Assembly: GCA_944385995.1 (NCBI GenBank)
Contig: CALWZL010000001.1
Location: forward strand, 46,382-110,381
From: an uncultured Faecalibacterium sp.
Lineage (GTDB): Bacteria > Bacillota > Clostridia > Oscillospirales > Ruminococcaceae
Length of the DNA stretch: 64,000 nucleotides
Reading direction: 5' to 3'
Below the pieces are notes generated by a model that saw only the letters and a program-made list of their open reading frames with translations, was not told the origin of the DNA and made no database searches. Numbering within the stretch: the first letter of the stretch is position 1; each line of letters opens with the position of its first letter. Below, in pieces: positions 6,985-32,488 of this stretch. The position numbers were made by a program, and so were the translations under genes.

Positions 6985-7147
6985 ATGACTTGACGCGACT
7001 TGAGCAAAATAAAATCCCCGGATCGCTTTGATCTGCGGTGCTCAAATGCCGTTCCGGCTTAGAATTCTTTGGCCGGCGGCCCATTCTGTGCTTTCTACGG
7101 ACCCTTGTATATATACCCCCGGCGGCTTGTCCGCCGGGGGCTTTGTT
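6985..7147 (+). ncRNA. Candidate small RNA 1
   Basis: Lies between a consensus promoter and a GC hairpin plus T-rich tail (7116-7147); three internal hairpins; no RBS-supported ORF. Confidence 0.5.
7116..7140. repeat. Palindromic CCCCGGCGG-n-CCGCCGGGG repeat/terminator, copy 1
   Basis: cccccggcggcttgtccgccggggg; related copies at 8169-8195, 8408-8432, 9786-9804, 10554-10575. Confidence 0.85.
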
Positions 7148-7365
7148 GTGTCCGGGGGTGAAAAACAACAACCTGTTACAATAAAGATGCAAAACATTAC
7201 AATATGCCTGTGGAAACGTCGCCGGGGCGGGAAACAGGCCCGGGCGGCAAGGGACGGCAAAAGGTTCCCGGTTTGGGGCGGGCATGGCGGATGCCGGAAG
7301 CATAAACCGGGAAACATTTTCCCCGGGGAAGGGCGAAGAGGTTTGTTCATGGTGAAGTTCCGTTA

Positions 7366-7394
7366 TTGACAATAACTGGTAAATATGGTATTTT
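7366..7394 (+). promoter_or_regulatory. Promoter of lipoprotein 1, with palindrome over the -35 box
   Basis: TTGACA-17-TATTTT with extended TG; GTTATTG-A-CAATAAC palindrome at 7362-7376; homologous to 8483-8511. Confidence 0.6.
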
Positions 7395-7467
7395 TATTCA
7401 AAACGAGGGGACTGGAATCAACAAGACGGTCTCATCTTCAAGGTACAGAGAAAGGATGGGTACAGCG

Positions 7468-8151
7468 ATGAAATGCAAAAAATGGATGGCTCTTGCTCTG
7501 GCGGCCGTGATGGCAGTGGGCGTTTTGGCGGGCTGCGGCGGCAATGGCAGCAGCACCAGCAGTGACTTGAACATCCAGGAGGTCAATTCTTATCTGAAAA
7601 CGGCCGGCAGTGATGTCCAGGTGAAAAATTCGGATGCCCTGAACAGCGCGGTCAAGCAGGCAGCCAGCAGCATGAAGGAAAGCGGCATTTTCACCCCGGA
7701 TAAGGCCAACGAAGAGGTCTTTAACCGCATGGACTGGTCGGACGTGGATGAGATGCTGGATGCCATCGGCAATCTGCAGGAAATGAATCCCTTCATCAAT
7801 CTGTCCTATGGCGCAGGTTTCTGCATCGAGGCAAATCGCCTGGAAGAGGGCGTGGATGTCAAATCGCTCCTGTCGGTTGTGGGGCTCAGCAGCGATCAGG
7901 TGGACAGCCTGGGCGTCGTGAAGACACCCGAACAGTTTGCAGCCGCCATTGTTCTGGCCGTGGATGAAACCATTGACGAGAACATCGATCAGGCCCTGAA
8001 TGGCCTGCTGCCGGACTGGCTGGAAGAGGTCGAATTCAAAGATCTGATCGGCTTTAACTACAGTGTCAGCGCGACCAAAGTGACCAGCGAAGAGGGCGTG
8101 GTCTACTGGGTTTTTGGCGGCCAGGTGGAAGCAAAAACCTTCAGCGTGTGA
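7468..8151 (+). CDS. Lipoprotein of unknown function, paralogue 1
   Basis: MKCKKWMALALAAVMAVGVLAGC lipobox; motifs shared with the three downstream paralogues. Confidence 0.88.
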   Translation: MKCKKWMALALAAVMAVGVLAGCGGNGSSTSSDLNIQEVNSYLKTAGSDVQVKNSDALNSAVKQAASSMKESGIFTPDKANEEVFNRMDWSDVDEMLDAIGNLQEMNPFINLSYGAGFCIEANRLEEGVDVKSLLSVVGLSSDQVDSLGVVKTPEQFAAAIVLAVDETIDENIDQALNGLLPDWLEEVEFKDLIGFNYSVSATKVTSEEGVVYWVFGGQVEAKTFSV

Positions 8152-8168
8152 GATAACAGCATCATCTT

Positions 8169-8195
8169 GTCCCCGGCGGCTGGTCCGCCGGGGAC
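8169..8195. repeat. Palindromic repeat/terminator, copy 2
   Basis: gtccccggcggctggtccgccggggac followed by tttgtt. Confidence 0.85.
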
Positions 8196-8297
8196 TTTGT
8201 TGGGTCTGGAGGAAAACAACCGGTAAAATAAGACAATCAAACGACAAATCATTACAATTTTATGGAAGAAATGCAGGAATTGTGGTATTCTGAAAGT

Positions 8298-8440
8298 ACC
8301 ATAAACGCAAAGCCCTCCCCGGATTTGCGGACCTTTCCAGAACTTGCAAATGGATCCCCAAAACGTAACGACAAATAGAGATTCCCTTCTTAACCGATCG
8401 TGCAAGACCCCCGGCGGCTCGTCCGCCGGGGGTCTTGCAC
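8298..8440 (+). ncRNA. Candidate small RNA 2
   Basis: Extended -10 TGTGGTATTCT (8281-8291); 5' hairpin cgcaaa/tttgcg with C-rich loop; ends in the extended palindrome 8400-8440; shares TCCCCGGAT with sRNA 1. Confidence 0.42.
8400..8440. repeat. Palindromic repeat/terminator, copy 3
   Basis: gtgcaagacccccggcgg-ctcgt-ccgccgggggtcttgcac. Confidence 0.85.
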
Positions 8441-8482
8441 TGTAAAAACAGTTGTATTTTTGTCGATACTGAAGTATAGTTA

Positions 8483-8511
8483 TTGACAATATATTCAAAA
8501 TATGGTACGTT
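8483..8511 (+). promoter_or_regulatory. Promoter of lipoprotein 2
   Basis: TTGACA-17-TACGTT with extended TG; homologous to the promoter at 7366. Confidence 0.55.
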
Positions 8512-8585
8512 TAATCCAAGTGAGGGAGATTGTAACCAATTTGACACAAAATTTCTCCCATCCTGGAACAGAAAGGAGCGTGGCT

Positions 8586-9068
8586 ATGAAACAAAGACGA
8601 TGGATTGCATGGATTCTGGCCGTTGTGATGGCGGCCTGTCTGCTGGCTGGCTGCGGCCTGGGCAGTGAGGCAAGCCTTTTGGCGCTGGATTATGCGTCCA
8701 TCAACCGGATGCTGAAGGAGGATGGACTGGAAGTCACCGTCTCCTCGGATGACACCCTGAATCAGGCGGTGGCCGAAGCGGCCCAGGCCCTGGACGGGGC
8801 GGAGCGGGAAGAATCCGAGTCCGACGCCGTCAAAACCCAGATCGCCCGTCAAACCGGAACCATGCCCCTGATCTGTGAGGCATATGACCGGGCCTACTGG
8901 CCCAATGCGCCGCTGGGAAACCCGGACCGCCACGAGAAAACCATGGTATCTTTTGCACAGCAGCTGTATGAGGGCGGCAACGGCCGGTCCTATACGGCGG
9001 CACTGGCCGGTTTCACCACCAAAGACGGGGATCGGATGCTCTTACTGGTGATGTCCAAAGGAAGATGA
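8586..9068 (+). CDS. Lipoprotein of unknown function, paralogue 2 (shortest, most divergent)
   Basis: GAAAGGAG RBS; MKQRRWIAWILAVVMAACLLAGC lipobox; INRML..LNQAVAEAA motif. Confidence 0.85.
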   Translation: MKQRRWIAWILAVVMAACLLAGCGLGSEASLLALDYASINRMLKEDGLEVTVSSDDTLNQAVAEAAQALDGAEREESESDAVKTQIARQTGTMPLICEAYDRAYWPNAPLGNPDRHEKTMVSFAQQLYEGGNGRSYTAALAGFTTKDGDRMLLLVMSKGR

Positions 9069-9139
9069 CAGGCACACGGCCTGTTGGTAGGCACACGATT
9101 CGGTAAAATCTTGACAACATGAAACGAGGTGTACAGGTT

Positions 9140-9766
9140 ATGAAGATCAAGAAGTTGTTGGCTCTGGCCCTGTCGGCAGTGATGGCCGTCGGTGTTCTGA
9201 CCGCCTGCGGAGGCGGCGGCGGAAGCAGCGTCAGCGGTTCTCTCAGCAACAATGAGGTAAACCGCTTGCTGAAGAGCGTAGGCAGTGGGATTACGGTGGA
9301 AAACGATACAAAACTGAACAATGCAGTGCGTTCTGCTGCCAGCGAGATCACTTCCAGCGGATCGACTTCCTCGGTTCAAAGTACCATTTCCAGCAATATG
9401 AAATGGTCCATCAGCAGCAATATTTCCAATGCCATTAAGAACTTTATCTCCAGCGGCGGCCTGATGGGCATTGATATGTCCTATGGTTCGACCTATGTGA
9501 TTGAGGAAAACCAGCTCAAGACCAATACCAGTGCCGGCGGCATCTGGAGTTCTGTCGACAATATCAGCAGCCTCGAGCCCATCAATACCCCCGAAAAGTT
9601 TGCAGCTGCCATGGTCCTGGTAGAGGAAAGCAAAAATGGCTGGATTTCAAGTGCAACCAACAATGTGGTTCGTTTTACCTACAACGTAAGTGCAAGCAAG
9701 GCGAAAACATCGGACGGCACGGTATACTGGGTCTTTGCGGCACAGGTGAATGTACACTTGCTGTAA
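9140..9766 (+). CDS. Lipoprotein of unknown function, paralogue 3 (Ser/Asn-rich)
   Basis: MKIKKLLALALSAVMAVGVLTAC lipobox; LNNAVRSAA, TPEKFAAAMVL, YNVSASK..VYWVF motifs. Confidence 0.88.
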   Translation: MKIKKLLALALSAVMAVGVLTACGGGGGSSVSGSLSNNEVNRLLKSVGSGITVENDTKLNNAVRSAASEITSSGSTSSVQSTISSNMKWSISSNISNAIKNFISSGGLMGIDMSYGSTYVIEENQLKTNTSAGGIWSSVDNISSLEPINTPEKFAAAMVLVEESKNGWISSATNNVVRFTYNVSASKAKTSDGTVYWVFAAQVNVHLL

Positions 9767-9785
9767 AATCAATGTTTGGAGTCTG

Positions 9786-9804
9786 CCCCCGGCCCCGCCG
9801 GGGG
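9786..9804. repeat. Palindromic repeat/terminator, copy 4 (shortened)
   Basis: cccccggc-ccc-gccggggg followed by tttt. Confidence 0.75.
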
Positions 9805-9910
9805 TTTTCCGGTATGAAGTGATGGCGAGCAAAGGCCGGCCGGGCGCAGAGATGGGCCGGCAGGCCGGCAGAGACCGGGCGCTGCGGCGCCCCTGGATGT
9901 GAGGTATAGA

Positions 9911-10519
9911 ATGATGAAAGCGAAAAAGTGGATGGCGCTTGCGTTGGCAGTGGTCATGGCAGTGGGAATGCTGGCCGGATGCGGCAGCGGTACTTCTTCC
10001 AGCAATCGGAGCGCCATGAGCGTATCCAAGGTCAACAGCGCGTTGCGGGCGGCGGAGAGCAAGACGAAGGCCAAGACGGTGGACGGACTGAACGAAGCAG
10101 TGGAAAAGGCCGCCGACTATATGGTGAAACGGGGCACCCTGGATGCCAACACCCTGCTGGGCTTCATTGCCTCGGAGCGCGGATACGACAATAACAACAA
10201 GTACGGCGCCGTCTTTGTGGTGTCGGAGGAAGAGCTGGAAGCCGGCATCAGCCCCAGCAGAGCAGCCGAGGGGATTGCGTCCCAGGTGAAATTGGAGGCG
10301 GACACTTCCAAGCTGGAAAAGATCGGCGTCCTGGACAGCCCCGAGCGGGTGGCCGCTGCGGTGATCCTGGGCGTGGATGGGGCGCTGAAAGAGCTTGTCG
10401 AAAACCCCTTTGTGAATGTCAGCGATATCACCTATGCGGTCAGCGGCCGGAAAGTCACGTTGGTCAATGACGTGGTCTACTATCTGATCGTGGTGGAGAT
10501 GAGCACCTCCGACGACTGA
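9911..10519 (+). CDS. Lipoprotein of unknown function, paralogue 4
   Basis: MMKAKKWMALALAVVMAVGMLAGC lipobox; LNEAVEKAA, SPERVAAAVIL, YAVSGRK..VYY motifs. Confidence 0.88.
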   Translation: MMKAKKWMALALAVVMAVGMLAGCGSGTSSSNRSAMSVSKVNSALRAAESKTKAKTVDGLNEAVEKAADYMVKRGTLDANTLLGFIASERGYDNNNKYGAVFVVSEEELEAGISPSRAAEGIASQVKLEADTSKLEKIGVLDSPERVAAAVILGVDGALKELVENPFVNVSDITYAVSGRKVTLVNDVVYYLIVVEMSTSDD

Positions 10520-13188: not shown

Positions 13189-13488
13189 ATGAAGAAAAAA
13201 AAGAGCACCGGGATCGTCCGCGGGATTGACAATCTGGGCCGTGTGGTGTTGCCCAAGGAGCTGCGTACCGCAATGGGCCTGACCGGCGACAGTAAGGTGG
13301 AAATCTTTGCGGAGAACGGTGCTATCGTCATGCGGAAGTATATCCCGCCCAAGGCCTGCATGTTCTGCGGCGCGGTGGATGAGCGGGCGGTGGTATTTGA
13401 AGGGTGCTGCATCTGTCCGGCCTGTTGTGAGCGGATTGCGTCGCTGGAGCCGGGGCAGACCACCGTGGAAGGGAGCGTTGCCCTGTGA
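13189..13488 (+). CDS. AbrB/MazE/SpoVT-family DNA-binding protein
   Basis: STGIVRGIDNLGRVVLPKELR; C-terminal CxxC...CxxC; AAGGAG RBS; promoter TTGACG-17-TATACT at 13064. Confidence 0.9.
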   Translation: MKKKKSTGIVRGIDNLGRVVLPKELRTAMGLTGDSKVEIFAENGAIVMRKYIPPKACMFCGAVDERAVVFEGCCICPACCERIASLEPGQTTVEGSVAL

Positions 13489-14426
13489 GCGATCTGCGGC
13501 ATCTGCGGATTTCCTCGGCCCGGCCGGGGAACAGCATCCATGTGATGCTCTGCCTGCCCGAGGGCCGGCCCCGGGCGGTGCTCCAGATGACCCACGGGAT
13601 GGTGGAGTACATCGGCCGGTATGAGGAACTGGCCCGCTGGCTGGCGGACCGGGGCATTGCGTCGGTGGGCCATGACCATCTGGGCCATGGGAGTTCGGTG
13701 ATGAGCAAGGACGACTACGGCTATTTTGGCCTTCCCGACGGCAACCGCCTGTTGCTGGATGACCTGTACGGGGTGACCCGCTGGGCCAAAAGGCGGGCCG
13801 AACTGGCGGGGGCGCCCTGGTTTTTGCTGGGCCACAGCATGGGCTCCTTTTACGCGCGGCAATATCTCTGTGAGCATGGCGATGAATTGAAGGGCGCCAT
13901 CCTGATGGGGACCGGCTGGCAGCCCAAAGCCGCGGTCCTGTGCGGCAAGGCGCTCTGCCGCCTGCTGGCGGCGGTGAAGGGCTGGCATGACCGGAGCAAA
14001 CTGGTGGACAGTTTAGCCTTTGGCAGCTATAACCGGAGCTTTGAGCCGGCCCGCACCCCCAAGGACTGGCTGAACCGGGACGAGGCCGAGGTGGACCGCT
14101 ATTTGGCCGAGGAGCGGTGCAGCTTCCGCTTCACCCTCAACGGCTATTACAGCATGTTCACCGGGCTGGCCCGGCTGTGCGACCCGACCTTATTGGACCA
14201 GGTGCCCAAAGACCTGCCGGTCCTCTTTCTTTCGGGGGACGATGACCCGGTGGGAGACAGGGGCCGCGGGGTGAACAGGGCGGCCCAGAGCCTCCGGGCC
14301 GCCGGCGTCCGCCAGGTGGAGGTCAAACTCTATCCCGGGGCCCGGCATGAATTGCTGGTGGAACTGAACCGCCAGGAGGTCTTTGCCGACATCGGCGCCT
14401 TCATCGAAAACAACCTGCCGGATTGA
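13485..14426 (+). CDS. Alpha/beta hydrolase (lysophospholipase-like)
   Basis: HGMVEY, DHLGHG, GHSMGS nucleophile elbow, GDDDPV, GARHEL. Confidence 0.92.
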   Translation: MSDLRHLRISSARPGNSIHVMLCLPEGRPRAVLQMTHGMVEYIGRYEELARWLADRGIASVGHDHLGHGSSVMSKDDYGYFGLPDGNRLLLDDLYGVTRWAKRRAELAGAPWFLLGHSMGSFYARQYLCEHGDELKGAILMGTGWQPKAAVLCGKALCRLLAAVKGWHDRSKLVDSLAFGSYNRSFEPARTPKDWLNRDEAEVDRYLAEERCSFRFTLNGYYSMFTGLARLCDPTLLDQVPKDLPVLFLSGDDDPVGDRGRGVNRAAQSLRAAGVRQVEVKLYPGARHELLVELNRQEVFADIGAFIENNLPD

Positions 14427-14427
14427 C

Positions 14428-14540
14428 GGCAAACACAGCGACCGCGTCCTGAGGACGAAACAGGGAGCTGTGTTTGGCGCGGTGCTCCAATTTTTACAAG
14501 GGCATTCATGCCCGCAGAAAAAATTGGTTAAGCACAAGAG
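14428..14540 (+). repeat. Dispersed structured element, copy A
   Basis: Aligns end to end with 32254-32369 (minus strand), with compensatory substitutions. Confidence 0.85.
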
Positions 14541-14646
14541 GACAGCAGTCTGTCTTTTATGGGTTCCCCCTAAAGCGTGTCGTTTTTCGATACGCTCAAG
14601 CGCCCCCGCGTGGATGAAAACGCGGGGGCGCTGGTGTTTGAGAGGG

Positions 14647-16358: not shown

Positions 16359-17453
16359 TCAGTTGGCAGTCATCTCGGAGCCCTGGCTGTCCCGGAGGAT
16401 CACTTCCTGGCCGGCCACGCTGCCCATCAGGGCGATGTAGCTGGTGCCTGGCTGGACGTTGAGGGCGGTGCCGTCCGAATTGTAGATGGAGAGGGTGGAC
16501 TCCACGCCGGGCATCCAGAGGATGCTCCAGACCGATCCGCCGCTGAGGTAGACCCCGGCGCCCATGGTCAAATCATAGCCCCAGGAATAGCCGTCATCCC
16601 GGAGGGAAGGGGCGCTGTAGAGGATCAGCAGGTTGTCAAAACCCGCCTGGGTGCCGGTGTTGGCGTCGGTCTGGGGAGAACCGTCGGCCCGGGCCATCAG
16701 GTATTGCTGGGTGCCGGCGTCATAGGTAAAACTGGTGGAGCTGGTGGAGGAAAAGATCAGCTCCACCGAGGAGGCCCCTTCCTTGCCGTTGGCGGGCTCC
16801 CCAAAGGGGAGAAGGGGCGGCAGATGGACGGTGGTGTCGCCCCCGGAGGAGTCGCTGTCCGCGGCGAGGGAATCGGCGTCAGCCTGGGGAATCAGAGAGA
16901 CGCCGGCGCTGGCGGCCAGGGGCAGCAGATCGGCGCCGCTGGTGGTCCAGCTGACCTGATCCGGCTGGCCCCAAGCGCCCTGGTAGGTGAAGCCCTGGAC
17001 CCCCAGGGAAAGGGCATCCAGGGGCAGAACGTCATAGAGGTCCAAAAAGTTGGCCGCGTAGATGCTGGCGTCCCGCTGCACCGGAATCACCTGTTGGCAG
17101 GCCAGGAGCTGGAGATAGAGGTCCCGGGCCTGGGCCACAGGTCCGGCCTGGGGGACAGCCTCCAGAGCGGGATAGACCAGACAGAGGCTGGTGTCGGTTT
17201 GCCCCTCGGTGAGAGCTTCCAGGACCACCGACGCTTCCCCGATGCCCCATTGACGGCTGGCATCCGGCCCGTTGTCAAGAAAGACGGCCGCGGGCCGCTG
17301 GTCGGGCCAGCGGGCTGTTTTGCCGGTGAGGGGGTCCAGAGCAACGGCGTCGGGATCGGAGGCCGAGCCGGTCTGCTGTCCGAACAGGGTACAGCCGGTC
17401 AGGACCAGGGCCGCAAAACAGAGGGCCGCCAGTGCCGGAGCAAGTTTCTTCAT
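16359..17453 (-). CDS. DUF3048-like lipoprotein (degenerate)
   Basis: LTGC lipobox; DPLTG..RPAAVFLDN..RQWGI..A.VVLE; similar to the adjacent gene. Confidence 0.75.
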   Translation of the reverse strand: MKKLAPALAALCFAALVLTGCTLFGQQTGSASDPDAVALDPLTGKTARWPDQRPAAVFLDNGPDASRQWGIGEASVVLEALTEGQTDTSLCLVYPALEAVPQAGPVAQARDLYLQLLACQQVIPVQRDASIYAANFLDLYDVLPLDALSLGVQGFTYQGAWGQPDQVSWTTSGADLLPLAASAGVSLIPQADADSLAADSDSSGGDTTVHLPPLLPFGEPANGKEGASSVELIFSSTSSTSFTYDAGTQQYLMARADGSPQTDANTGTQAGFDNLLILYSAPSLRDDGYSWGYDLTMGAGVYLSGGSVWSILWMPGVESTLSIYNSDGTALNVQPGTSYIALMGSVAGQEVILRDSQGSEMTAN

Positions 17454-17472
17454 GGTGAAAGTCCTTCCCAAA

Positions 17473-18675
17473 TCAGGCATTGAAGGTAAAGTATCCCTGT
17501 TCATCCTCGTCCACGATGGCCAGATAGGTGCGGCCGCGGTTGAACGTCACCGGCTGGCCGTTGTCGGTCACTTCGAGGGGGAGATCGGGGGCCAGTTTGG
17601 ACCACTGGCAGACCCGCACCCGGCCCCGGGTAAAGAGATAGGCTTCGCCGCCGGCGATATACTGGACCTCCTGCACATCGCCCGAGTCGCCGGCATAGGC
17701 GGCAATGGGTGCAAAGCAGACCAGGAGGTTTTCAAAGGCCAGCTGCTGGCCGTTCAGCTCATCCACCGCAGCTTCAAAGGCGCCGGTGCGGGCGCTGTAC
17801 ATCTGCATCCGGTAGACCTTGTCAGGGGCGCTGTAGGTAAAGGCGGACTGGTACTTGGCCGAATGCCGGACGGTGACCGACCGGGCAGCCTGACAGCCTT
17901 CCAGCAGCTCGATCTCGCCGGTGCGGTAGTCAGTGAAGGGGAAGAAGGTGTTGTCGTAGTTGTAGGTCAAGCCGATGCCGGCATTGGCGGCGGCCTGACG
18001 GATCTCAGGCCCGGAGGTGAATTCGGTGTGCTCATAGGCCACCACACCGCCGCGGCTGTCCCGATGGGCCACATGGGGATGGGTGGGGGTGTTGAAATAG
18101 CTCTTGCCGCCGATGTTCAGCCCGGAGTAATTCCACTGGTTGATGTACTGGGTGCAAAAAACGCTCTCGCCGTCGTGATAGTAGAGGGCCTGCCAGGGCA
18201 TCACCAACTGGAGGAACTGATCCCGGCCTGACCGCAGGGGACCGACCTCGGGAATGGCGTCTACATTGTCATAGAGGGCGCAGAGCCGGCTGATGCTGCC
18301 CTCCACCTTGGATTCGATGACAATGGAAGCCGACGACAGACCCCGCTGGGGCCGCGCATTTTGCCGGGCGCTGTTGCAGATGTTGTTGACCATGACCGCA
18401 ATGATCCGACCGCTGCCGGTTTTGGCTTCACCGGTGAGGGGATCGGCGTCATAAGGGGGCAGGGCCGGGGCACTGCTGGAGGCCGGCTGTGAAGAAGCGG
18501 CGGCAGAGGACGAGGAAGAAGCTGCGCTGGAGGAGGAAGAGGAGGGGGCCTCTCCCTTGCCCAGCAGACTCTGGAGCCAATCCATGAAACTGCTCTTGGC
18601 GCTGGCACCTGTGAGGGCCAGGCATCCGGCGAAGGCTGCCGAACAGCGCAGCAGCAGACGGCGAGTGATCTTCAT
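17473..18675 (-). CDS. DUF3048 domain-containing secreted protein
   Basis: DPLTG, AVMVNN, ARPQRGLSSA, VEG.ISRL, VGPLRSGR motifs; signal peptide and Ser-rich linker. Confidence 0.82.
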   Translation of the reverse strand: MKITRRLLLRCSAAFAGCLALTGASAKSSFMDWLQSLLGKGEAPSSSSSSAASSSSSAAASSQPASSSAPALPPYDADPLTGEAKTGSGRIIAVMVNNICNSARQNARPQRGLSSASIVIESKVEGSISRLCALYDNVDAIPEVGPLRSGRDQFLQLVMPWQALYYHDGESVFCTQYINQWNYSGLNIGGKSYFNTPTHPHVAHRDSRGGVVAYEHTEFTSGPEIRQAAANAGIGLTYNYDNTFFPFTDYRTGEIELLEGCQAARSVTVRHSAKYQSAFTYSAPDKVYRMQMYSARTGAFEAAVDELNGQQLAFENLLVCFAPIAAYAGDSGDVQEVQYIAGGEAYLFTRGRVRVCQWSKLAPDLPLEVTDNGQPVTFNRGRTYLAIVDEDEQGYFTFNA

Positions 18676-31875: not shown

Positions 31876-32253
31876 GACGGGGCAGGTCCATCTTTCTTTT
31901 GCCATTTCCGGGCGCGAAGGCAGGCGTCTGAAACGAAAAGGAAAACCGGTATTCTGCGAGCTGAGCGGCTGGCAGGAAGCCGGTTTTTTGGTTTTTATGG
32001 GGGTTGCCGTTGACCAAATTTTCTGTGCCAGACGCTCCGATTTTATCATCGAATCCCACCCGCCGCCCATAGCGGAACCCCCAGCCCTGCGGGCTCGCCC
32101 CCATGGGGCTCTAAACCTAAAACTTGTTCAAACACAAAACCCCCGCTCCAAAACCATGGAGCGAGGGTTTGTTTTGATTCTGAAGTTTTACGACAGGTAA
32201 AATCAGTCGGAAGATAATCTATTTGTAACTTTACATCGTGCCGGGTCGGTGCT

Positions 32254-32369
32254 CTCTTGCGCTTAGCCAATTTTCCCTGCGGGCCGCACAGCGCCCTTGT
32301 GAAAATTGGAGCGCGGCGCCAAACACACCTGGCTGTTTTGTCCACTGGACCCGCTTCGGCGTGTTTGCC
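32254..32369 (-). repeat. Dispersed structured element, copy B
   Basis: Reverse complement aligns with 14428-14540. Confidence 0.85.
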
Positions 32370-32488
32370 CGGACCTGACGTGAGCGCGGTACAGTCTGCA
32401 ACCCTCTGCCGCCTCATAAAGAGCGGCCAGAGTGTATGGTACCCAGTAAAGTTCTTTTTGCCTTCTTTTTCTTTCAAGAAAAAGAAGG

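What the first reader, a model, noticed from the sequence alone, without database searches (positions are those of the whole stretch)
14428..14540. Dispersed ~115-nt structured element with compensatory base changes and a possible pseudoknot (copy A; copy B at 32254-32369, minus)
Seen: the two copies, 18 kb apart, align end to end (about three quarters identical by eye), and each lies 3' of a gene on that gene's strand (2 nt after the hydrolase stop; ~120 nt after lepA). The differences preserve pairing. P1 is AAACACAGC/GCTGTGTTT vs AAACACGCC/GGTGTGTTT. GTCC/GGAC keeps a variable triloop and GGGC/GCCC a variable loop. GTGCT/AGCAC becomes GCGCT/AGCGC, and CCAATTTTT/AAAAATTGG becomes CCAATTTTC/GAAAATTGG. 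A strand inside P1 also covaries with the linker 3' of P1 (ACCG/CGGT vs GCGG/CCGC), implying a pseudoknot or alternative fold. Unpaired segments (AAACAG, ACAA, GCAG, TAA, AAGAG) are conserved. I do not recognise the family. Inference: a new structured RNA motif (3'-UTR regulator, protein-binding site or ribozyme) or a non-autonomous mobile element acting through ssDNA/RNA structure. This is the best candidate for an undescribed system here.
Basis: partly seen in the sequence, partly recalled or inferred. Interest (0 to 1): 0.85.

Follow-up and report, generated by a model that had tools for sequence, protein, structure and literature searches.

The report
Folded jumping element of gut Clostridia
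The two copies belong to a roughly 115-base, gene-less, tightly folded element that is widespread in gut Clostridia, is present or absent at matching sites in related genomes and usually sits right after a G, so it is likely a small mobile element moved as single-stranded DNA by an enzyme that is still unidentified.

Summary
This Faecalibacterium-like genome holds 25 whole or partial copies. Across 95 copies, 35 of 38 pairs change on both sides; the proposed pseudoknot fails in both registers, while an extra 2-bp helix covaries. There is no Rfam match. The family occurs in 37 of 40 other genomes of the genus, 53 of 150 of the order and 29 of 150 of the class.

It looks mobile. Orthologous sites are empty in relatives, and 40 of 46 filled/empty pairs place it 3' of a G, with an altered right junction. 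It lies in tRNA loops, other repeats, its own copies, prophage reading frames and antisense to lepA, often with duplicated flanks.

Best reading (0.55): a non-autonomous single-stranded-DNA insertion element that works like REP/BIME or IS200/IS605 ends but is not a member of either. No Y1, Y2, reverse transcriptase, DUF559 or RtcB gene tracks it. The scan apparently noted this family before, beside tRNAs in other Clostridia (unchecked notes). My literature searches found no description.

The parts
14430..14541 (+). Copy A of the element, from the first base of stem P1 to the conserved G that ends the tail (GAGG)
   Evidence: ends inferred from filled/empty pairs and the empty allele
14430..14476 (+). 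Domain D1 of copy A: 10-bp stem P1, tandem G.A, 2-bp stem, 1x5 internal loop, 5-bp hairpin with an N-G-N three-base loop
14477..14541 (+). Domain D2 of copy A: linker whose first two bases pair with the tail (new 2-bp helix), 3x2 loop, long stem with a 3-nt bulge, 2x3 loop, variable apical hairpin
14428..14429 (+). Left junction GG, 2 nt after the hydrolase stop; a related contig lacking the element continues with a short microhomology to the element's first bases
   Evidence: tables 5 and 5c (run X2)
14560..14597 (+). Second, unrelated repeat module of the same intergenic mosaic
14600..14631 (.). GC-rich hairpin between the convergent genes, likely the resident terminator; relatives have a hairpin here without the element
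   Evidence: it was not called by the terminator scan
13485..14426 (+). alpha/beta hydrolase gene upstream of copy A (host gene, not part of the element)
32253..32367 (-). Copy B of the element (D1 32367-32320, D2 32319-32253)
   Evidence: six joint entries in other samples end at 32254 (tables 5 and 5c)
32370..32488 (-). Other repeat modules between the lepA stop and copy B, starting with a hairpin directly after the stop codon
32489..34300 (-). lepA, upstream of copy B (host gene)

Best explanation
This is a gene-less element of about 115 bases with two folded domains that is present at some sites and absent at the matching sites of relatives, and it is likely a non-autonomous insertion element that moves as folded single-stranded DNA with the help of a still unidentified enzyme. 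Shown: the fold is kept by paired changes on one strand only; the element usually follows a G of the target; its left end is sharp, often with a few bases of microhomology; its right end usually swaps or adds one or two bases; it is often accompanied by a duplication of about 20-100 bases of the target. Inferred: an enzyme recognises the two domains on exposed single-stranded DNA, cuts or primes at an unpaired G of a nearby or distant hairpin and joins that G to the element's first base; synthesis then returns either just past the cut (plain insertion) or further upstream (duplication, tandem arrays). At tRNA genes only events that leave an intact copy would survive, which would explain the broken-copy-plus-intact-copy pattern.
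For: Mobility: the hydrolase-HTH gap has no element in 3 of 3 relatives where it is contiguous, and a contig in run X2 lacks it at copy A's site. The lepA gap has none in 3 of 4 relatives and an antisense copy in the fourth. A 175-bp MITE occurs with and without the element, which sits just past the loop of the MITE's central hairpin. Copy number runs from 0 to 75 in one genus.

Junction rule: 46 of 214 probed junctions had an empty twin. In 40 of 46 the target base before the insertion is G, in 36 of 46 the first base after the element differs from the target's next base, and in 30 of 46 the net change is 0 or +1 base (hand count; rows share host repeats). The left flank ends in G in 107 of 127 copies and the tail position is G in 111 of 127.

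One strand: opposed A.G 234 versus T.C 4, and G.T 70 versus A.C 19.

DNA rather than RNA: an antisense copy carries a 55-bp duplication of the lepA end, and another lies in an antisense spoVAC piece. Flanking hairpins have C-GNA-G loops in 22 of 231 cases against 6 of 241 on the opposite strand, while apical loops are GNRA in 12 of 129 and UNCG in 0. G.T pairs make up 4.5% against 9.3% in tRNAs of the same loci. This genome had no RVT_1 or RtcB match.
Against: No partner enzyme was found. Y1 occurs in 24 of 53 element-positive and 32 of 97 element-negative genomes (p=0.16), Y2 in 1 of 53, and this genome has no Y1 match (88% complete). Every tRNA-linked copy with a clear orientation is sense to the tRNA (35 of 36 genome loci, one mixed; 33 of 33 metagenome loci), and 20 of 25 copies here follow a gene on its own strand; both fit an RNA step equally well. 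Replichore bias is inconsistent (20/37, 15/18, 8/10, 19/50). RNA parameters favour the given strand (mean z -3.4 versus -2.8) while DNA parameters do not (-2.9 versus -3.0). The altered right junction is unlike the precise joins of IS200/IS605 (recalled). The loop and G.T statistics are indirect, and the copies are not independent.
Confidence: 0.55

Rival explanations
1. An RNA-mediated mobile element: the folded RNA (possibly catalytic, or bound by a reverse transcriptase acting in trans) is joined to RNA or DNA cut after a G and copied back into the genome.
For: tRNA-linked copies are sense in 68 of 69 loci, one being mixed. Junctions fall in tRNA D-loops and anticodon loops, and snap-back inverted pieces flank some copies. 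Extra bases at one junction recall non-templated additions (recalled). RNA folding favours the given strand.
Against: Antisense copies with the same duplication pattern occur at lepA and spoVAC. RVT_1 is in 16 of 53 positive and 19 of 97 negative genomes, RtcB in 6 of 53 and 18 of 97, and neither is in this genome (hand tally). There is no Rfam ribozyme match. RNA-type tetraloops are rare.
Confidence: 0.18
2. No dedicated enzyme: the fold stalls or diverts the host's replication or repair machinery and is copied by template switching at short microhomologies, so it spreads as a purely structural parasite.
For: No tested enzyme family tracks the element; 15 of 53 positive genomes have none of Y1, Y2, RVT_1, DUF559 or RtcB (hand tally). 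Microhomology at left junctions, imprecise right junctions, and internal and inverted recombinants are common.
Against: The exact loop sizes, the bulge and the 2-bp helix are kept across a whole class, which is more than a generic hairpin needs. The left end is the same base in most copies. The element is patchy within the order, although host machinery is universal.
Confidence: 0.15
3. A functional host non-coding RNA that is made from tRNA promoters and cut free by tRNA-processing enzymes, or acts in 3' ends of mRNAs, and whose spread is secondary.
For: Low-copy Clostridia carry it beside tRNA genes in 36 of 55 loci, nearly always sense. Structure is strongly conserved. Summed contig depth of an RNA run peaks over it, although this sums many copies and proves nothing about expression.
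Against: It is absent from 97 of 150 genomes of the order and from orthologous sites of close relatives. The adjacent tRNA varies (at least Pro, Ser, Leu, Met, Trp, Asn, Glu, Arg, Thr). In Faecalibacterium it mostly lies away from tRNAs, in both orientations, in other repeats and in reading frames. Domains are shuffled and truncated.
Confidence: 0.12

Closest known systems
REP/BIME elements with TnpA-REP (RAYT); PMC6006769 (passages read), PMC3333891 (search listing only)
   Same: Gene-less folded repeats in intergenic mosaics, often just 3' of stop codons, in tandem and inverted clusters, with flanking DNA caught in duplications (the rolling-circle model for BIME growth is recalled, not read).
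   Different: 115 nt with two domains rather than a 20-40 nt hairpin; no GT[AG]G foot; no Y1 gene flanked by the element; Y1 presence does not track it; tRNA loops are a main target.
Non-autonomous IS200/IS605 derivatives (PATE-like; features recalled)
   Same: Two structured halves on one strand, no terminal inverted repeats, no fixed target duplication, insertion 3' of a short target motif, and bases at the 5' foot of the right-hand stem pairing with bases near the 3' end.
   Different: The target motif is one G rather than a fixed 4-5-mer; the right junction is altered; no covariation of a guide with the left flank; no TnpA-bearing parent found.
Neisseria dRS3/NTS mosaics with SsnA (GIY-YIG); PMC11893778 (passages and Discussion read)
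   Same: Strand-specific hairpin repeats that expand in some lineages and cluster in intergenic mosaics.
   Different: SRM elements are 20-50 nt and flank a single-domain nuclease gene. Here the GIY-YIG hits lie in long frames (a GNAT fusion and a 650-aa frame, likely UvrC), and the 6 GIY-YIG loci searched carry no copy.
att sites of tRNA-targeting integrative elements
   Same: Partial tRNA or guaA copies beside an intact gene; some copies lie next to integrases.
   Different: The unit is about 200 bp with no recombinase; junctions fall at many different tRNA positions and at non-tRNA hairpins; most loci have no integrase nearby.
Rickettsia palindromic elements (recalled)
   Same: Folded repeats tolerated in frame inside protein-coding genes.
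   Different: Unrelated sequence and fold, a different phylum, and mostly non-coding sites here.

Membership tests
Any Rfam 15 family | Score at or above a family's gathering threshold | tested here: not met
   Window: only one tRNA. E-value mode gave nothing convincing over either copy. Seven loci from other hosts gave only tRNAs.
Hammerhead ribozyme | Conserved CUGAnGA, then stem II, then GAAA | tested here: not met
   Copy A has a look-alike run without stem II, and its TGA loop occurs in 1 of 136 non-redundant copies.
Self-cleaving ribozyme of a new class | Site-specific cleavage of the transcript | not testable with these tools
   Needs an in vitro assay.
REP/BIME with RAYT | GT[AG]G foot on a short hairpin | tested here: not met
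   Consensus and left-flank counts show no such foot.
REP/BIME with RAYT | Cognate Y1 gene flanked by the repeat | tested here: not met
   No Y1 in this genome, G001, G005 or G084. Three copies lie near a Y1 gene (L069, L288, L560), each on one side only; the RAYT at L560 has its own GTAG repeats. Co-occurrence 24/53 versus 32/97, p=0.16.
IS200/IS605 non-autonomous element | Fixed 4-5 nt target read by an internal guide | tested here: not met
   Only the last G is fixed; linker bases do not covary convincingly with the left flank (one apparent signal traced to misparsed rows).
IS200/IS605 non-autonomous element | Structured ends on one strand, no inverted repeats, no fixed target duplication | tested here: met
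IS200/IS605 non-autonomous element | Lagging-strand-template orientation bias | tested here: inconclusive
   20/37, 15/18, 8/10, 19/50 in four closed genomes, with the terminus assumed opposite dnaA.
Ssn/SRM system | Single-domain GIY-YIG gene flanked by the repeat | tested here: not met
   No copy in 6 GIY-YIG loci; hits lie in frames of 225 aa or more.
MITE of a DDE transposon | Terminal inverted repeats and a fixed short target duplication | tested here: not met
   The element has neither. It is a passenger in a true MITE in G140 and G084.
IS91-type rolling-circle element | Y2 transposase in hosts | tested here: not met
   PF04986 in 3 of 151 genomes, 1 of them element-positive.
Retroelement (retron, group II, RT-dependent) | Linked or co-occurring reverse transcriptase | tested here: not met
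   No RVT_1 match in this genome; 16/53 versus 19/97. The ORF families shared between loci were integrases, recombinases and host genes.
Published candidate structured RNAs (PMC8040213, PMC10690425) | Identity with one of the listed models | not testable with these tools
   The supplements could not be read. Main-text passages of PMC8040213 did not describe it.

The most novel reading that the evidence does not exclude
A new class of mobile element in gut Clostridia: a 115-base folded nucleic acid that inserts after almost any unpaired G in a hairpin, using either an enzyme family not yet linked to transposition or its own catalytic fold, and that builds the intergenic mosaics, tRNA half-duplications and in-frame protein inserts of Faecalibacterium and its phages.
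Probability: 0.25. Interest if true: 0.88.

Novelty: new variant of a known kind. Interest (0 to 1): 0.64.

Why it matters
Faecalibacterium is a dominant gut bacterium. This element reaches 75 copies per genome in the genus, duplicates gene ends and tRNA halves, and adds about 40 residues in frame to prophage proteins. Its fold is far more elaborate than a REP, yet none of five tested enzyme families tracks it. Either a new single-strand transfer enzyme with relaxed, structure-based targeting remains to be found, or the element needs none. The filled/empty pairs give exact substrates for a direct test. It is also a caution: strong covariation here marks a mobile repeat, not necessarily a functional RNA.

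Tried and rejected
Pseudoknot between D1 and the linker: rejected in both registers. An APC-corrected mutual-information scan of 95 copies gave no other long-range pair beyond the linker-tail helix.

Rfam families: none.

Shared neighbouring gene: none in 46 chromosomal loci. In 46 non-redundant viral loci the shared ORFs tested were mostly phage structural genes. In about 195 further loci only integrases, recombinases and host genes recurred.

Enzyme co-occurrence in the same 150 genomes: Y1 24/53 vs 32/97; RVT_1 16/53 vs 19/97; Y2 1/53 vs 2/97; DUF559 18/53 vs 19/97; RtcB 6/53 vs 18/97 (hand tallies, only Y1 tested statistically). No copy lay in 34 DUF559 loci. ORFs between close pairs of copies looked like host genes or, in L561, an IS3-like pair judged by eye.

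Guide pairing to the left flank: not supported.

Expression: only contigs were served, so strand, ends and level could not be read.

Plasmids: no match. INPHARED phages: 19 unannotated records.

A planned test of whether empty targets are hairpins at the cut could not be run because the script machine was lost. That claim rests on single cases.

Literature searches found no description.

Full report
Observation. Copy A starts 2 nt after the stop of an alpha/beta hydrolase gene and copy B lies 120 nt after lepA. Each folds into two stem-loop domains. Rfam has no match in the window, over either copy in E-value mode, or in seven loci from other hosts. LepA is 90-91% identical to Faecalibacterium records and 80-83% to Gemmiger, so the host is likely a Faecalibacterium.

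It is a family, not a pair. An iterated profile finds 25 whole or partial copies in this 2.25-Mb, 88%-complete genome, and none at that cut-off in the reversed genome. The two domains occur alone, in tandem and in new combinations, inside larger mosaics of other hairpin modules. A covariance model finds it in 37 of 40 other genomes of the genus, with 0-75 copies; in 22 of 150 of the family with the first, narrower model; in 53 of 150 of the order; in 29 of 150 of the class; and in 1 of 150 of the phylum. It is also common in viral contigs and metagenome contigs.

Structure. In 18 copies from this genome, 22 of 38 pairs change on both sides; in 95 copies, 35 of 38 do (that alignment was fitted to the model). 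The proposed pseudoknot fails in both registers, at 42% and 51% paired, equal to shuffles. A new 2-bp helix does covary: the first two linker bases pair with the two bases after the conserved AA at the 3' end. The inner pair is kept in 129 of 135 non-redundant copies; the outer is a standard pair in 80 and G.A in 46. Conserved unpaired parts are tandem G.A, a 1x5 loop, an N-G-N three-base loop, a 3-nt bulge and two similar 2x3 loops that face each other across the long stem. The fold belongs to one strand: opposed A.G 234 versus T.C 4, and G.T 70 versus A.C 19.

It looks mobile. The hydrolase-HTH gap has no element in the three relatives where it is contiguous; two hold only a hairpin and one a different mosaic. 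A contig of run X2 joins 14428 to 14620 without it. After lepA, three of four relatives have none. A 175-bp MITE of two other genera exists with and without the element, which sits just past the loop of the MITE's central hairpin. Probing 214 distinct junctions found an empty twin for 46. By hand count, the target base before the insertion is G in 40 of 46, the first base after the element differs from the target's next base in 36 of 46, and the net change is 0 or +1 base in 30 of 46. Several rows share a host repeat, three look like tandem-array artefacts and three are probably false pairings; none was dropped from these counts. The base two before the junction is often changed too, and the target often shares 2-6 bases with the element's start. 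Targets include other repeats, the element's own unpaired Gs, the guaA end, and prophage reading frames, where it stays in frame.

tRNA link and duplications. In low-copy Clostridia a tRNA lies within 400 bp in 36 of 55 loci (35 sense, one mixed, none antisense only) and in 33 of 80 metagenome loci (all sense). The element sits in the D-loop, anticodon loop or variable-T region of a partial copy beside an intact gene, sometimes in tandem arrays or with fold-back inverted pieces. The same pattern occurs away from tRNAs and against transcription: in G005 an antisense copy is joined at a G of the lepA antisense strand, with about 55 bp of the gene end duplicated, and another lies in an antisense spoVAC piece. 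None of the 18 fetched regions around this genome's other copies holds a tRNA, and 20 of 25 copies follow a gene on its own strand.

DNA or RNA. For DNA: the antisense cases; C-GNA-G loops in flanking hairpins (22 of 231 versus 6 of 241 on the other strand); few RNA-type tetraloops (GNRA 12 of 129, UNCG 0); and a low G.T share (4.5% versus 9.3% in 103 tRNAs). That GNA three-base loops are especially stable in DNA is recalled. For RNA: the sense bias at tRNAs and a slight strand preference under RNA but not DNA parameters. Replichore bias is inconsistent across four closed genomes. Public runs gave contigs only. The question is open, leaning to DNA.

Partner enzyme. None was found. This genome has no Y1, Y2, RVT_1 or RtcB match, and its DUF559 and GIY-YIG hits lie in long frames. 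No mobilising gene recurs beside the element. Across the same 150 genomes none of five families tracks it, and 15 of 53 positive genomes have none of the five (hand tally). Three copies lie near Y1 genes, each on one side only. An enzyme acting in trans, since lost or sitting in unassembled DNA, is not excluded.

Mechanism. I commit to a non-autonomous element that moves as folded single-stranded DNA (0.55). Shown: one-strand fold, presence/absence at matching sites, G junction, altered right end, duplications. Inferred: recognition of both domains by a strand-transfer enzyme, cutting or priming at an exposed G, return of synthesis just past or upstream of the cut, and survival of tRNA insertions only with an intact copy. 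Rivals: an RNA-mediated element (0.18), a structural parasite of host replication or repair (0.15), a functional host RNA (0.12).

Comparison. It works like REP/BIME and like Neisseria NTS mosaics, and its anatomy recalls IS200/IS605 ends, but it fails the membership tests for each. Papers seen: PMC11893778, passages and Discussion; PMC6006769, passages; PMC8040213, main-text passages; PMC3333891 and PMC10690425, search listings only. Searches found no description. The supplements of the two candidate-RNA surveys could not be read and may list this motif without comment.

Earlier notes of this scan describe what is probably the same family inside tRNA duplicates of other Clostridia. Sequence look-ups returned nothing, so the identity rests on length, hosts and context. 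What this locus adds is the expansion away from tRNAs, the filled/empty pairs, the G rule, the antisense duplications and the negative enzyme survey.

Verdict: real, apparently undescribed in print, a new variant of a known kind; interest 0.64.

Noticed in passing
window 32457-32488 (-) and many loci, e.g. L005, L013, L014, L598, L601: A second module family: an A/T-tract hairpin that starts directly after a stop codon and heads long intergenic mosaics; the element inserts right behind it in some loci.
   Followed up: partly
G140 and G084 (L295, L303-L332): A 175-bp MITE with about 17-bp terminal inverted repeats and 4-bp AT-rich target duplications, about 40 matches listed per genome (the scoring cap), folding as one long nested hairpin; no parent transposase was sought.
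   Followed up: partly
L168:403-525, L171:1987-2109: The element lies in frame in prophage-like ORFs; in L171 one open frame runs from a portal match through the element into a second phage family, with an xLQLFA-like motif on both sides.
   Followed up: partly
L560 (G572): Repeated units of an antisense spoVAC piece plus a shared promoter precede different genes, one a RAYT-like gene with its own GTAG repeats, one of them inside the coding frame.
   Followed up: no
L562:2050-3200 and 7250-8800 (G001): Dense mosaics with internal and inverted recombinants of the element, broken at its conserved Gs.
   Followed up: partly
window 7115-9990: Four genes with near-identical lipoprotein-like starts, two with a shared promoter region and three similar hairpins, an array of exported-protein genes.
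   Followed up: no
window 16359-18675 (-): Two tandem DUF3048 genes.
   Followed up: no
L002:889-1755: A GIY-YIG domain fused to a GNAT acetyltransferase; similar-sized GIY-YIG frames occur in all five relatives searched.
   Followed up: no
L459 and 13 other loci: A tyrosine integrase family recurs near the element, about 220 bp away in the five loci listed, probably an integrative element using the same tRNA site.
   Followed up: partly
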